From Mizuhopecten yessoensis (Eukaryota): a stretch of 64,000 nt of DNA. The position numbers were made by a program. The stretch is taken from positions 763,371 through 827,370 of the forward strand of contig NW_018404352.1 in NCBI RefSeq assembly GCF_002113885.1, in the 5' to 3' direction. How positions within the stretch are numbered: the stretch's first letter is position 1; the number at the start of each line of letters is the position of its first letter. Below, piece by piece: positions 47,301-53,300 of this stretch.

Positions 47301-50300
47301 ATGAGCTTAAACCTCGTATTGGCCCAATTGAAATCTTGTACATCAATTCTTTAATGTTTTCGCTGCGCTAGCGGTAGATGGTTATGTTTTTAAAAAAGTC
47401 TCACTGTAGAGTCACATCTTACATGAAGTAGTCATGTGATGTTTTGGTGTACTAAAGTCACGTGACCTGTGCATAATGTTTTTCCATGCTGACATTTTGA
47501 AAATCTCCTTAAAAATCAGTTACCCTCCTCCTCCCCTAATTTATATCCACCTTTATGTACTATTGTGTAAAAATGCAATTGGTGCACATCTTTTTTTTTT
47601 GTAATTGTTTTATTTTTCACTACATAAAGGTCTTCACACACATTCTCTTTCACACACAAAAAAATGTATATGGATGTGTACATGCATCATCATCATCATA
47701 ACTACAATACACCTCACCCATAAACAATCTTCATCCTCATCATCATTATGAAAATATAGTTACCAATGCATCAGTACCTATCTCGCATAATAAACATCAT
47801 CATCCTCATTATCATCATCATCATTATAATCTTCATTGCATTAATACCTCTCACACATAAACAATCATCTACCCTCATAATCATCTTCATGAAAATATAA
47901 TTACAAATGCATCAATGCATGTCTTACACTATAAACATCATCATCATCATCATTGCCTCAATATGCTTCACATAATACACAATTATCAGTATCATCATTA
48001 TCATCATTGCATTACTATCTCTCACACAATAACAATCATCAACCCTCATCATCATCATCGTCATCATTATGAAATTATAACTACCAATGTCTCAATATTG
48101 TTGCACATCTTCATTTTATATTTTGTTTCATTTGTTGTACATCTTTTAATTACAATAACTTCAGATGGGTGACGTTTACTTTGAAGCAAGCCCCATCATT
48201 TTTGGTTCTTTGAACACCTTATTATAAAAATAACACGAAGATGTATACATATGTTCGATTTCTGGGATTTAGAAATAAATGTTCTTTTTCGACAACTTAA
48301 GTTTTTGATAATTTATCGACAAAAAACATAGCAGAGTATACCCTGTGTGTGCTGTTGGGTTTAGTGCAGACTTAACACGATAATATAAGTAATGGTGCGG
48401 CCATTCTATTATCCACCAGACACGCATCAGGTGCATCATTAGGGTACTTAATCAATGTTCGGGGTGAGCAAAAATATTTATTCTGAAAAAATATGCAGAC
48501 AAAAAGAATGTACGTATAACGATATCGGATTTCCGATATCAAGCTCTTAGATCCATATAACCTCTTATTAAATCACCAACAGGTAACAATCAATAAAAAA
48601 GAAGATATTCCTTTCAAATATTCGTAGCACACACACATAACACCTGTACATTGCCATCTTTATTACTCGCAGGCAAACTCAATATTCACTTAAACTACGT
48701 TATGGAAGCACCACCTCACTGTTTACGTCACCACATTAAAGCTTATAACTAATTATACAATTCGTGATTCAAAATAAAATAATGGTACTACAAGATGTAA
48801 TAATTTGCTGTCTTCGTTTTCATATTTACTCTATTTTCAAGACATTGTTATTGTGTTACATGTATGCACAAAACAAAAAACACAGAAAATACCACTATTA
48901 AAGCCAATGATGCATTTTCATAGCGAAAACAAACCGGAAAAGATTATAAATGATGAAGACAAGATAACAAATAATATAATAGAAACAAGTTTAACTATTT
49001 TATGATCGTAATTTACCAACATTGCCAGCAACAAAAACCCATTTAAATATACAAGCATAGATTTACAAAGAGAGGCCGGCCACACCATAAAAACAAGCCT
49101 CAACAAATCTTAAAAATATGCAAGTATGAAAAGTTGTGAAATACCCACTTGACGAGGAAGAGCGGGACGTACAATATAATTTCACCCTTGAGTACACACT
49201 TGACTGATTTCAGTGAAACATTAAAAAGGGTGCGATCATCAATGAATAGGTTTGTTTATCAAGTAAGGTCATGAACAATGTAACTGCATATGAGTTTGAG
49301 TAGAAATAGCTTATATTGCATCCGCTTTATTCTGAATGGAGTGGCCCATTAAACTGACTGTATTTCCCGTATGTTTTTGCTGAAAGCTTGAAATACTTGA
49401 GTAAACTATCGTGCTTATACATATAATCAATTGTAAATAAGTTTTGAATAGAAAATCATACCATTTATTTGGTGTTGTTTATTGTATTATTGCAAAACTG
49501 ACCGATTAATCGGTAACTCGGTCGGGAGATTTTGACTAAACTTCGTTCGGTTTGACAATCTTTGTATTTACCTGTCATCTTTTAGTATGAATGGTGGTCG
49601 TTAATATATCCACGTTGTCAACTGCAGCTGTACAGTGATCTATTTTGACAAACGTATATAGTGTTTTCTTGATACTACAAAGAAACACAACACATGGCCT
49701 GTTAAAACTCGTTATAGGATTTCCCACTGACGATATATGTAAGGTGAAAACAGAGACAGATTGTCTCAGTAAACCATACAAAGTCGGTGTTCATTCATTC
49801 AAATATTGTCGCATTTGTTCATATTTGCATTACATGTACAGTACCACCACTACAGCCGATCCAAACATGTCCGCACATGTCGACACACACAGCCAACGGA
49901 TCTGTTACTGCATGTTTCTTGTCAAGGAGACACTTGGCCTTTCTTTCATTCCCCGATATGACGTATACCTGGTTAGTGTTATAGTCTGGTACAAATATTC
50001 TGTCATATTCATCACATGCTATATCGCTCTGCAACGTCTCTGTTATCTTCTGACCATTGTCCAGTTCCCCACTCCACTTGTGCATGATCTGGTCATATTT
50101 GTTGATGACAATCATTTCGTTACAATTCAAATAATCAGAGCCAGTGGTGACAGCTATATATCCTGTTGTCAAATTAACTATACTAAGCCCATCTCCTCCA
50201 CAGGATATTTGTCTGATCCTATCCCCAGACATGTTCAGTACCAGCATTGTTGGGGTGAGAGTAGTGACGAACACCTCGTCAGTGTCACTGATACTGATAC

Positions 50301-53300
50301 CTGAGGCGTTTAACGGACTGATGTCAGCAAAATCAGTCACTCGTCTGTCCTCAGATATAATGTGTATCAGCGAAGAATTCTTATACTCTGTGACCAGAAG
50401 TACTTTCTCATTGGACACGGTTAGACGCCACGGGTTAAAGTCAAGCTTGACAGACTCTGTGACGTTGCCTTCTTTGTTGACTTTGACCAATTCATTAGAT
50501 TCATATACCGACATCCATACTTGATTATCGTCAGTAGGACATATTGAGTTGATTTGTGTCCGCTGAGGCATTTGGAATGTAGAAATCATTTGAACCTGTT
50601 GACAGTCAACTTCCTTCTTTTCATACTGCACGTCTTCATTCTTCAATACTTGTAAACGCCCAAACACTGTCTTCAATTGATCTTTGTTACGTTCACCAGG
50701 GACGAAGTGATGTTGGCGAGGTACCACGCTCTTTTTATTTACATCATACAGCGGTTTGGTGGTTTTCATTCTTCTAGTCATTTCAAATAAGGATGCACTA
50801 GATTTCGTTTCTGTGGCTTGTTCCACATCTTCCATCAGTTGTTTGATCTCTTTGACGTTTTTTTCGTGAGATTGACAATCTCGAGTGTGGGATATTTCTT
50901 CTTCTTCAACCAAGGACGATAACTCGACCAAAACCGAGTCCGCTATGAAATTAATTTCTTCTTTCAGTTTAAATCTTTGCGTTTGTACTGATTGTCGGAT
51001 GACTTCCACGTTCTCTTCGAACGATTTGCTCACCTCATGACGCTTTGATATATTGTCATTAAAATGGTCTAAATTGGAGTCCAACGTTATCAATAGCTCT
51101 CGAAGGAACTGTTTTTGTACGTCAATTTCCAGTTCAATGTTTTTGAAAACGTGTTGGCTATGTTTCTCGGTAAAACAAGTTGCGCACATCATTATTTCAC
51201 AATCACAACAATACAGGTCACATGATTTACCGTGGTGTGTCTTACATACCTCCGGGAGAAATGTCTGATTTTGTTTGATCGCCCTTGTAATTGGTACAAC
51301 GGCATCATTTCGTGTCTTTCTCGCGCGTTGGTGACTCTCTTTACAGCCGTCACATAAAGCCTCTTGACAGTCATTACAGTACCAGTTAACGTCCTGTATG
51401 TTTTCACACCAAGCACACGGATCAGGCACGTGCACCAGAGCACTCCGGGTGGCTAGTTCACTTGACATCTTTGTTAGATTATACTATATATTTATCGAAC
51501 AAACAACTTTCTAACCCGTCAAAGTTTCCTTTGATTTTAAACTGAACGTCGATTACTTGTCCTTTGCTTTCACTGAACTCATGTGATAAATAAAAATAGC
51601 AGTCATGCCTATTGGCGTGTATAAGGCCTTTTCGTTGTAATATAAAGTCAAAGGTTCAACGAGGTGCCCGGATCTGGGCATATATAATACACAACAAATC
51701 GTGAATTGCGAACTGTAAGGTATGCTTTATATTTAGATATTGAACGATTTCGACAAGTTTGAAAAGTGGATATATTTTGTCATTGCGATCAAAACAGTGA
51801 CTTTTTTAACAACTTTTCGATTTAAGGGATAGTTTTGGGGAATTCTGTAATGCCTCAGTTACAGTTATAAATTGCTTGATCGACTGATGTTTATTTTTAA
51901 TAGCCGCATAGACTATCGATATCAACCACCAACACCCTCTCCCCAAGTTCCCCCCTTTTTGTTTCATTCTATTTTTTTTATATTTAGAACTTGTGCAGAA
52001 CTTGTATAAATGTTTTCATATAGAATCTTACCCACTGAGTTTGTTCTTATCTAATGTCCCAGCGTAGGCTAAATTGATGTAACGGTTATATATGGTCATG
52101 CATGCGAGTTAAAATGGCGATTCCAAGTTAGAAATACCTTACAGTTATCGTGTTGGACGTGGTAAACGCATATGGTTCTGTACCAAACCAGGTATGGAAA
52201 ACTATGGAGCATCACTATGTCCAAGATCATATTATCAACTTTATTGTCAGCCTTTTATTGGGGATACATTTGAGATTCAGCTTTGATCAAGTTATAATAA
52301 ATCTGGATAAACATAAAGATTGGAATCATTACAGGGTACATACGATCGATGTGGTCGATACAATTCTTGTTATTTAAAGATAGCACAACATTGTTATATA
52401 GAATGTGAAATTAAATTACTCGTCAAGGATTTTTTTACTTTGTCCTAATAGACTTTTCAACTGATTCAGCTTCATATGAAAAGCAAAAATAAATTGGCCA
52501 GAAGAGGGTATGAGTTTGTTCCTATAGAAATGCCTACAGCATAACCGGACACACAATGATATTGTCAGTGAAGAACTCAGTCATTCTCACAATTTCATAC
52601 GCTCTTCTCAAAAACCGGTGGTGTATTGAGGACAAGCTCAGCCTATTTATTTGGTAGATTCCGTTTATTTCCGGCGTTTTAATGATTCATGTTATCTTCA
52701 TCAGTATGTCACAGGCGGCTGTTGTTGAGTTTCTATACGGAAGTAGATCGCGATGAAATTCTTGCTCTCTGTAATGTGTTTCCTGTTATCTCGGTATGCC
52801 GGATTATTGCAACAACTATGTATTTTGTATGAAATTTTGTTGTCAAAATATTAGAGATATATCGTTTTTTCATACATTTCGCTGCATCCCATCTTAAGAG
52901 ACATCCAATATAGGACCTCATGCAGAATCGGCGGTTTTTCCTAGGTTAAATATTGATCTGATCGCGGTAAGCTTCCCTTTCAAAGGTCGTCAGGTTTGAA
53001 TGTGTCGGCAATATGGATAGACTTTCAATGACGGATAGAAATCGTGCGATTGCGATGCTACAATCTGGGGCAGCAGAACATCATGTGTCGCATGTGATAA
53101 TTTTAACAAGGTTTACGATTAAATGTCTTTTGAAGTGTTATTGACGAGTATGACATGTCAACCAACTCCCTGGAGCCGGACGTCGACGTGAAATGGCGCC
53201 ATGTCAGGACCGCTTCATTCTTATTCCATGCATAGCGTCGAAACAGAGCGACGTTTACCGTTTTCCATGAGCAAACGCTGTGTTTAAGAAGTTAACAGAA

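What the first reader, a model, noticed from the sequence alone, without database searches (positions are those of the whole stretch)
49819..51468. The only intact TRIM-like copy is an A/C chimera with a crossover mapped to 15 bp
Seen: copy B matches A at every diagnostic site from the promoter through B-box1 (MSSELATRSALV, RNDAVV, QTFLP; 51255 = G as in A). It matches C from 51239 onward (CKTH, IMMCATC, coiled coil, propeller). The switch lies in 51240-51254, at the start of B-box2. Both flanking parents carry frameshifts, but the chimera does not. Inference: unequal crossing-over between A and C made the 6226-bp duplication and put C's propeller under A's promoter, a promoter/domain-shuffling route for diversifying an expanded, putatively immune gene family.
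Basis: partly seen in the sequence, partly recalled or inferred. Interest (0 to 1): 0.65.

Follow-up and report, generated by a model that had tools for sequence, protein, structure and literature searches.

The report
Recombinant B-box gene in scallop array
Three neighbouring RING-less B-box/NHL genes of the Yesso scallop include a middle copy whose front end comes from one neighbour and whose body comes from the other, a textbook product of unequal recombination, although this short-read assembly cannot prove the extra copy is real.

Summary
The window is Mizuhopecten yessoensis DNA. Three minus-strand single-exon genes (A 43598-45242, B 49819-51468, C 56045-57695) sit in two tandem units of 6226 and 6227 bp that differ at only 7 places. 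B equals C at 281 of 283 substitution sites up to 51239 and equals A at 26 of 26 sites from 51255. The single switch gives max chi-square 285, reached by 0 of 10000 permutations. B is intact (549 aa). A has a 4-bp duplication and C a 1-bp insertion.

The polarity, register and period fit homology-mediated unequal exchange (NAHR), a well-known mechanism.

- The 15-bp interval is the parsimony estimate; the conservative one is 109 bp.
- C's frameshift arose after the event.
- Only 6 residues were swapped.
- The proteins lack a RING.
- The promoter and the immune role are untested.
- The assembly is Illumina-only, and 6 of the 7 unit differences lie in the gene body (P about 0.001). The copy number could therefore be an artefact, with B an allele of C.

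An older 5' exchange is also visible: A-C dS is 0.016 in the first 107 codons against 0.46 in the rest.

This is an ordinary mechanism in a clean new example.

The parts
43598..45242 (-). Copy A: B-box1/B-box2/coiled-coil/NHL-like propeller gene, pseudogene by one frameshift
   Evidence: ORFs 44871-45242 and 43598-44551. The frame 43598-44896 is open for 432 codons. It keeps 37 of 39 family-invariant residues and has lost His103 (now Tyr) in B-box2 and Leu342.
44892..44895 (-). 4-bp tandem duplication that shifts the frame of A
   Evidence: Four extra bases relative to B and C; sequence read.
45014..51239 (.). Tandem unit 1 (6226 bp): 5' end of A, spacer, body of B
   Evidence: 7 differences from unit 2.
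49819..51468 (-). Copy B: intact 549-aa chimeric gene
   Evidence: ORF. Pfam zf-B_box E 3.2e-10, two stretches. AF2 model with mean pLDDT 77.8, helix 111-241 and propeller 293-548. NHL domains of TRIM2, TRIM3 and Brat are the closest compact folds, with target-normalised TM 0.75-0.79.
51240..51254 (.). Most parsimonious switch interval; codons 72-77, at the start of B-box2
   Evidence: Last B=C site is 51239 and first B=A site is 51255. The conservative interval is 51193-51301.
51133..51488 (-). Block of about 350 bp in which A and C are 93-100% identical (older 5' homogenisation); its counterparts are about 44907-45262 in A and about 57360-57715 in C
   Evidence: Identity profile. A-C dS is 0.016 for codons 1-107 against 0.46 for codons 108-549.
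51240..57466 (.). Tandem unit 2 (6227 bp): 5' end of B, spacer, body of C
51682..51707 (-). Conserved upstream block with a TATA-like core, 214-239 bp before the ATG; shared by A/B and C. A promoter role is inferred only.
   Evidence: Alignment, columns 127-152 identical.
56045..57695 (-). Copy C: same gene type, pseudogene by one frameshift. The NCBI model XP_021344564.1 skips the break.
   Evidence: ORFs 57132-57695 and 56045-57061. Cluster look-up and sequences. It keeps 39 of 39 invariant residues.
57170..57180 (-). C's frameshift: a run of three T becomes four on the coding strand, with a substitution 4 bases upstream of the run (N173H)

Best explanation
An older array A-spacer-C of two paralogous, RING-less B-box/coiled-coil/NHL-propeller genes misaligned through the roughly 350-bp 5' block in which A and C are still 93-100% identical. 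A homology-mediated unequal exchange followed (NAHR; meiotic or mitotic crossing-over and break-induced copying cannot be told apart). It duplicated 6226 bp in tandem and created gene B. B carries A's upstream spacer and A's first 72-76 codons (B-box1), joined in frame to C's B-box2, coiled coil, propeller and 3' flank. Shown: the sequence pattern. Inferred: the mechanism, and that B is expressed from A-type upstream DNA. After the event C acquired its frameshift. A's frameshift and its loss of His103 lie in the part B did not inherit, so their timing is open. The 5' block is itself the trace of an earlier exchange, so this spot has recombined at least twice.
For: Period 6226/6227 bp with 7 differences between the units. 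One switch: 281 of 283 substitution sites are B=C up to 51239 and 26 of 26 are B=A from 51255; max chi-square 284.9, reached by 0 of 10000 permutations. The polarity (C-like on the left, A-like on the right in + coordinates) is that of the duplication product, not the deletion product. The junction is in frame and B is open for 549 aa. The switch lies in the only A-C block of 93-100% identity. The switch interval is 15 bp. Any assembler word longer than 16 bases across it occurs in neither A nor C, so a word-based short-read assembler could not have produced the junction unless reads contained it; this is inference. The earlier exchange shows in dS 0.016 against 0.46, and in N-part identity of 90-95% among A, B, C and D against 64-72% for the 12 other M. 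yessoensis paralogues among the 27 relatives compared (43-72% over all 27), while A's C-part is 68% identical to B.
Against: The assembly is Illumina-only (Table 5 of PMC5836269), and a 6.2-kb repeat at 99.9% identity cannot be resolved by short reads alone. Six of the 7 unit differences fall in the 1466 bp of gene body and 1 in the other 4760 bp (binomial P = 0.00095). A simple recent duplication read correctly does not predict this. It suggests either that the spacers were rebuilt from pooled reads or that the B and C bodies are alleles. There is no independent sighting of B: its exact protein is on one contig only, and a search for shorter proteins with residues 1-140 gave 6 hits among 9 candidates, the best 66% identical. 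Read depth, spanning reads and transcripts were not available.
Confidence: 0.6

Rival explanations
1. B is real sequence but is an allele of C: a C allele whose first 220-320 bp or so were converted by A (gene conversion, no crossover). The assembler laid the two alleles in tandem and filled in a second copy of the spacer from the same reads. The true locus would then be A-spacer-C.
For: Illumina-only assembly of a bivalve. The same group's sister project reports very high heterozygosity and complex bubbles, though that statement concerns Chlamys farreri (PMC5700196 passages). Spacers are almost identical (1 difference in 4760 bp) while the B and C bodies differ at 6 places in 1466 bp, an allele-like 0.4%. 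False duplications of heterozygous regions are documented in older assemblies (PMC9516828; search listing and start of abstract only).
Against: It needs a second, unseen junction where the converted tract returns to C-type upstream DNA. In the assembly B equals A at all 197 sites up to 51926, including the stretch beyond about 51810 where A-type and C-type upstream DNA no longer align. There are no Ns anywhere in 32341-64000.
Confidence: 0.2
2. The junction itself is an assembly error: contigs of C and A were merged by overlap inside their 96-97% identical 5' block, so no chimeric molecule exists.
For: A and C are 93-100% alike over about 350 bp. Overlap-based gap closing or haplotype merging can switch templates anywhere inside such an overlap (own knowledge).
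Against: The switch falls between two diagnostic sites 16 bp apart, whereas exact A-C matches of 46, 37 and 109 bp lie next to it. A word-based assembler would switch in one of those. The units also carry 7 private differences, so they were not simply copied. The assembler used for this genome could not be checked, because the genome paper is not held.
Confidence: 0.08
3. Three copies are old, and the near-identity of the units results from long gene-conversion tracts that homogenised B with A on one side and with C on the other.
For: Exchange is recurrent at this locus.
Against: It would need conversion over 4.8 kb of non-coding spacer plus 1.4 kb of gene, ending at one shared point. A single duplication explains the same pattern with one event.
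Confidence: 0.03

Closest known systems
Hybrid genes made by unequal crossing-over in tandem arrays (haemoglobin anti-Lepore, red/green opsin hybrids); recalled, from no call
   Same: Misalignment of tandem paralogues, an in-register junction inside a block of high identity, and a duplication product that carries a hybrid gene between the two parents.
   Different: Here the parents differ strongly outside a 350-bp block (dS 0.46). Both parents are now broken. Copy number rests on a short-read assembly.
Tandem expansion of bivalve immune-type families attributed to unequal crossing-over (C1qDC in oysters, PMC6835236; abstract and five passages read)
   Same: A bivalve lineage-specific family in tandem clusters with nearly identical recent copies.
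   Different: A term search of that paper found no occurrence of 'chimer' or 'gene conversion', and none of the passages read maps a breakpoint. Here one is mapped to 15-109 bp.
Sea-urchin Sp185/333 clusters (PMC5103432, PMC3091723; search listing and start of abstracts only)
   Same: Segmental duplication and instability in a clustered invertebrate gene family.
   Different: Those papers invoke short tandem repeats around the genes. Here the exchange is inside the coding sequence.
TRIM-NHL proteins (TRIM2, TRIM3, Brat) and TRIM28/TIF1-beta
   Same: B-box1, B-box2 and coiled coil match the TRIM28 profile (E 1e-17) and TRIM3 (E 3.6e-10). The propeller superposes on TRIM2, TRIM3 and Brat NHL domains (TM 0.75-0.79).
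   Different: No RING. All 27 aligned relatives start at the same Met, about 16 residues before B-box1. Pfam NHL is below its cut-off.
False duplications in assemblies (PMC9516828; listing and start of abstract only)
   Same: Near-identical adjacent copies in an older short-read assembly of a heterozygous animal.
   Different: The copies are joined without a gap, at a paralogous rather than an allelic junction.

Membership tests
NAHR / unequal-exchange tandem duplication with hybrid gene | Direct tandem units whose period equals the offset between the two paralogous exchange sites | tested here: met
   Spacing 6226 and 6227 bp. Homologous points are 45014, 51240 and 57467.
NAHR / unequal-exchange tandem duplication with hybrid gene | Junction in register inside a stretch of high identity between the parents | tested here: met
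   The switch 51240-51254 lies inside a block of 93-100% A-C identity, and B is in frame.
NAHR / unequal-exchange tandem duplication with hybrid gene | A single switch with the polarity of the duplication product | tested here: met
   281 of 283 sites are B=C, then 26 of 26 are B=A. The two exceptions (50713, 50923) are most simply changes private to C.
NAHR / unequal-exchange tandem duplication with hybrid gene | All three copies physically present on one chromosome (depth, spanning reads) | not testable with these tools
   No reads and no second assembly.
NAHR / unequal-exchange tandem duplication with hybrid gene | Units diverged evenly since the event | tested here: not met
   6 of 7 differences lie in 1466 of 6226 bp, P = 0.00095.
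TRIM (RING, B-box, coiled coil) | N-terminal RING finger | tested here: not met
   No RING family among the Pfam hits at E up to 0.1. B-box1 starts at about residue 16, and Met1 is invariant in 27 relatives.
TRIM (RING, B-box, coiled coil) | One or two B-boxes | tested here: met
   PF00643, E 3.2e-10, 40.5 bits against a cut-off of 24.1, two stretches.
TRIM (RING, B-box, coiled coil) | Coiled coil after the B-boxes | tested here: met
   Predicted helices 111-221 and 224-241. Profile matches to the B-box/coiled-coil chains of TRIM28, TRIM3, TRIM5 and TRIM25. This is a prediction only.
TRIM-NHL subclass | C-terminal six-bladed NHL propeller | tested here: met
   23 strands in 293-548 with pLDDT about 88-94. 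TRIM2 NHL TM 0.78-0.79 and rmsd 2.8-2.9 A. Pfam NHL reaches only 15-16.5 bits, below the cut-off of 20.
TRIM-type immune factor | E3 ligase activity or a response to infection | not tested
   Only names given by similarity, and a bivalve-expanded B-box orthogroup labelled 'interferon-beta production' in a table of PMC8382680 (passage). Whether that group contains this family was not checked.

The most novel reading that the evidence does not exclude
The roughly 350-bp B-box block is a recurrent exchange point. It has been homogenised at least once before (A-C dS 0.016 against 0.46) and then served as the site of the A/C exchange. The local copies (A, B, C and the off-window copy D, which is mosaic at the same residues) would thus repeatedly re-pair upstream regions and B-box1 with strongly diverged propellers, and an intact gene can be rebuilt from decaying neighbours. 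This would be a cassette-like way of keeping a fast-evolving pectinid gene family alive.
Probability: 0.15. Interest if true: 0.5.

Novelty: new member of a known kind. Interest (0 to 1): 0.3.

Why it matters
If the three-copy arrangement is real, this is a finely mapped example of birth-and-death evolution in a scallop-specific expansion of RING-less B-box/NHL genes. All 40 relatives found come from four scallop genera, 20 of them from M. yessoensis. The example shows that new intact genes there can arise by exchange between paralogues that are themselves decaying. It does not change what is known about mechanism. Its practical value is as a test locus for copy-number polymorphism and as a warning about counting such genes in short-read assemblies.

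Tried and rejected
- Independent evidence for the chimera. The exact look-up finds B on one contig only. A search for shorter proteins with residues 1-140 gave nothing above 66% identity (6 hits among 9 candidates).
- The genome paper of the species (doi 10.1038/s41559-017-0120) is not held. The assembler and the heterozygosity of the sequenced animal therefore stay unchecked. PMC5905365 said nothing on this. Supplements of any paper were not opened.
- Positive selection in the 5' block. In the 107 codons there are 12 differences, with dN 0.044 above dS 0.016. The numbers are too small and I make no claim.
- Literature on this particular chimera or on a TRIM survey in scallops. Searches listed nothing on it. 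They were keyword searches of open-access text only.
- One search used a wrong frame for A (46 stops) and is void. One search replaces it.
- Bacterial promoter and terminator scans, tRNA and Rfam tools were not used, as they do not bear on this question.
- No eukaryotic genome collection was available, so orthologous loci in Pecten, Argopecten or Ylistrum were not examined.
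Full report
WHAT THE WINDOW IS. The window has 64% A+T and four N runs, none of them after 32340. The exact protein of the intact ORF is in the public collection on a 949,535-bp contig of Mizuhopecten (Patinopecten) yessoensis, the Yesso scallop. The NCBI model XP_021344564.1 corresponds to the neighbouring copy C. A comparison table in PMC5836269 (Table 5, passages read) lists this genome as Illumina-only, 297x, scaffold N50 803,631. The genome paper itself is not held, so the assembler is not verified. 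The same group describes a modified SOAPdenovo for the sister species Chlamys farreri (PMC5700196, passages).

THE OBSERVATION. A self-comparison aligns 43571-51807 with 49788-58020, and repeat families give a spacing of 6226 and 6227 bp. In a sliding window, identity between the two units is 74-87% up to about 44970/51196. It is then 98.5-100% for some 6.2 kb, and it falls again after 51370/57597.

The list of differences shows that A and B last differ at 45013/51239. From there on, unit 1 and unit 2 differ at only 7 places: 46993, 50360, 50713, 50923, a 1-bp indel at 50947, 50952 and 51073. B and C start to differ steadily at 51255/57482.

In the three-way alignment, 349 sites have B=C, all at or below 51239. 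Of the 200 sites with B=A, 197 lie at or above 51255 and 3 are isolated. Within the clearly homologous 49788-51560, counting substitutions only, 281 of 283 sites left of the break are B=C and 26 of 26 right of it are B=A. Max chi-square is 284.9, and 0 of 10000 permutations reach it (largest permuted value 43.3). The alignment shows the 15-bp interval 51240-51254 directly.

THE GENES. All three copies are on the minus strand and have no intron in the coding part.
- B (49819-51468) is open for 549 aa.
- A is interrupted by four extra bases at 44892-44895, a tandem duplication of a 4-base unit. Behind it the frame is open for 432 codons to the stop.
- C is interrupted near 57174 by a T run of three becoming four, with a substitution 4 bases upstream of the run.
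- C keeps 39 of 39 residues that are invariant in 27 relatives. A keeps 37 and has lost His103 of B-box2 and Leu342 (one search used a wrong frame and is void).

Pfam finds two B-box stretches and no RING, and Met1 is invariant in the family alignment. The AlphaFold model (mean pLDDT 77.8) has a long helix at 111-241 and a propeller at 293-548 with pLDDT around 90. The closest compact solved folds are the NHL domains of TRIM2, TRIM3 and Brat, with target-normalised TM 0.75-0.79. The family profile matches the B-box/coiled-coil part of TRIM28 (E 1e-17) and of TRIM3. The proteins are therefore RING-less B-box1/B-box2/coiled-coil/NHL proteins: TRIM-like in architecture, but not TRIM by the defining RING.

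THE FAMILY. The homology search returned 40 proteins: 20 from M. yessoensis (one of them the window's own A fragment), 13 from Pecten maximus, 5 from Ylistrum balloti and 2 from Argopecten irradians. That all four are scallops is my own knowledge. Ten of the M. yessoensis proteins lie on a single 770,466-bp scaffold. An immune role was not tested here. The only link is a table row in PMC8382680 on a bivalve-expanded B-box orthogroup (passage).

HOW IT MOST LIKELY AROSE. If an array A-spacer-C misaligns C of one chromatid with A of the other, an exchange gives A, then a hybrid, then C. In + coordinates the hybrid is C on its left and A on its right, the spacer is doubled, and the period equals the A-to-C offset. 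This is the pattern seen.

The switch lies in the only stretch where A and C are 93-100% identical, roughly 44907-45262 in A. Homology-mediated unequal exchange is therefore the simplest account. Whether it was a meiotic crossover, a sister-chromatid exchange or break-induced copying cannot be read from the sequence.

The 15-bp interval is the parsimony estimate. The fourth copy D (OWF54502.1, 223 aa, not in the window) can be used to polarise the changes. The nearest sites at which B shares a derived state are then 51192 on the C side and 51302 on the A side (codons 93 and 56), which gives a conservative interval of 109 bp.

WHAT THE EXCHANGE CHANGED. B took at most 76 codons from A, and these differ from C's at 6 residues. 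Upstream of the ATG, A-type and C-type DNA are 83% identical over 365 bp and share a perfectly conserved block with a TATA-like core 214-239 bp before the ATG. Further out they do not align. B thus has C's propeller behind A-type distal DNA, but the proximal region is related in both parents and no transcription start is known. The domain shuffling is slight.

C's frameshift lies in the part that B took from C, yet B lacks it, so it arose after the event. A's frameshift and A's His103 loss lie in the part B did not inherit, so their timing is open.

AN OLDER EVENT. Synonymous divergence between A and C is 0.016 in codons 1-107 and 0.46 in codons 108-549. At the protein level the first 107 residues are 90-95% identical among A, B, C and D. 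The 12 other M. yessoensis paralogues in that comparison are 64-72% identical to B there (43-72% over all 27 relatives). A's remaining 432 residues are 68% identical to B, no closer than the 57-67% of those 12 paralogues on other scaffolds. The 5' block was therefore homogenised long after A and C diverged, and the new switch used that block. Its 3' edge in A is about 12 bp from A's 4-bp duplication, which may or may not be related. D's tail matches B's DNA in another frame, so D is probably frameshifted as well. That would make three of the four local copies broken.

WHAT SPEAKS AGAINST TAKING THE ASSEMBLY AT FACE VALUE. A 6.2-kb repeat at 99.9% identity cannot be resolved from short reads without mate pairs and gap filling. 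Six of the 7 differences between the units lie in the 1466 bp of gene body and one in the other 4760 bp (P = 0.00095). This fits spacers rebuilt from one pool of reads. It also fits the rival reading in which B is an allele of C carrying a short conversion tract from A, with the tandem copy an artefact; false duplications are documented (PMC9516828, listing and start of abstract only).

Against a pure misjoin: the switch lies between two diagnostic sites 16 bp apart, while exact A-C matches of 46, 37 and 109 bp lie beside it. A word-based assembler could produce the junction only if reads contained it. This is inference, because the assembler is unverified.

No independent sighting of the junction was found. 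Supplements of papers were not opened.

COMPARISON AND VERDICT. Hybrid genes from unequal exchange in tandem arrays are textbook genetics (haemoglobin anti-Lepore and opsin hybrids, recalled). Unequal crossing-over is the accepted driver of bivalve tandem expansions such as C1qDC (PMC6835236, abstract and passages). Keyword searches listed nothing on this locus or on a TRIM survey of scallops. The finding is a clean new instance of a known kind, with a real risk that the copy number is an assembly product. I put 0.6 on the unequal-exchange duplication, 0.2 on an allele of C with a conversion tract, 0.08 on a pure misjoin and 0.03 on an old triplet homogenised by conversion. Interest is 0.3.

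Noticed in passing
window 44907-45262, 51133-51488, 57360-57715: Older homogenisation of the 5' end. A-C synonymous divergence is 0.016 in codons 1-107 against 0.46 in the rest, so the block used by the new exchange is itself a product of earlier exchange.
   Followed up: yes
window 46993 and 50360-51073 (partners 53219 and 56586-57300): The 7 differences between the two units are crowded into the gene body (6 in 1466 bp, 1 in 4760 bp; P = 0.00095). This is unexplained under a simple recent duplication.
   Followed up: partly
not in the window; protein P0003 (OWF54502.1), same 949,535-bp scaffold: A fourth copy D that is mosaic at the diagnostic residues: C-like at residues 2-11 and 56, A-like at 69-72 and 93. 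Its tail matches B's DNA in another frame, so it is probably frameshifted too.
   Followed up: partly
window 44936 (codon 103 of A): A has Tyr in place of the family-invariant His103 of B-box2, a likely zinc ligand (that role is recalled, not tested). This is a second sign of decay besides the frameshift.
   Followed up: partly
window 35877-37046, minus strand: Broken tyrosine-recombinase element. Phage_integrase (E 1.7e-6), DUF3504 (E 5.7e-10) and a weak QRICH1-like match lie in three different frames. It looks like a decayed Crypton-type transposon (that name is recalled).
   Followed up: no
window 13403-16095 and 16521-16668: A 31-bp minisatellite of about 87 copies runs straight into the 206-N gap (16096-16301) and resumes after it. 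The gap was left as it is.
   Followed up: no
window 6425-7236, 20291-21271, 24272-25514: Further tandem arrays: 146-bp unit (5.6 copies), 190-bp unit (5.1 copies) and 16-bp satellite (77 copies).
   Followed up: no
window 26062-27866 and 60939-62502: A dispersed repeat in direct orientation, 69-88% identical in pieces, with no Pfam match in the ORFs tried. Possibly a non-autonomous transposon.
   Followed up: no
window 29145-29540, minus strand: An ORF with a weak match to amino-acid transporters (Aa_trans, E 3.7e-4, 19.7 bits, below the cut-off of 25.6). Possibly an exon of a neighbouring gene.
   Followed up: no
window 47796-48172 (copy at 54022-54398): An ATC-rich microsatellite and 54-bp repeat in the spacer that reads as a His-rich 85-aa ORF on the + strand. 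Most likely not a gene.
   Followed up: no
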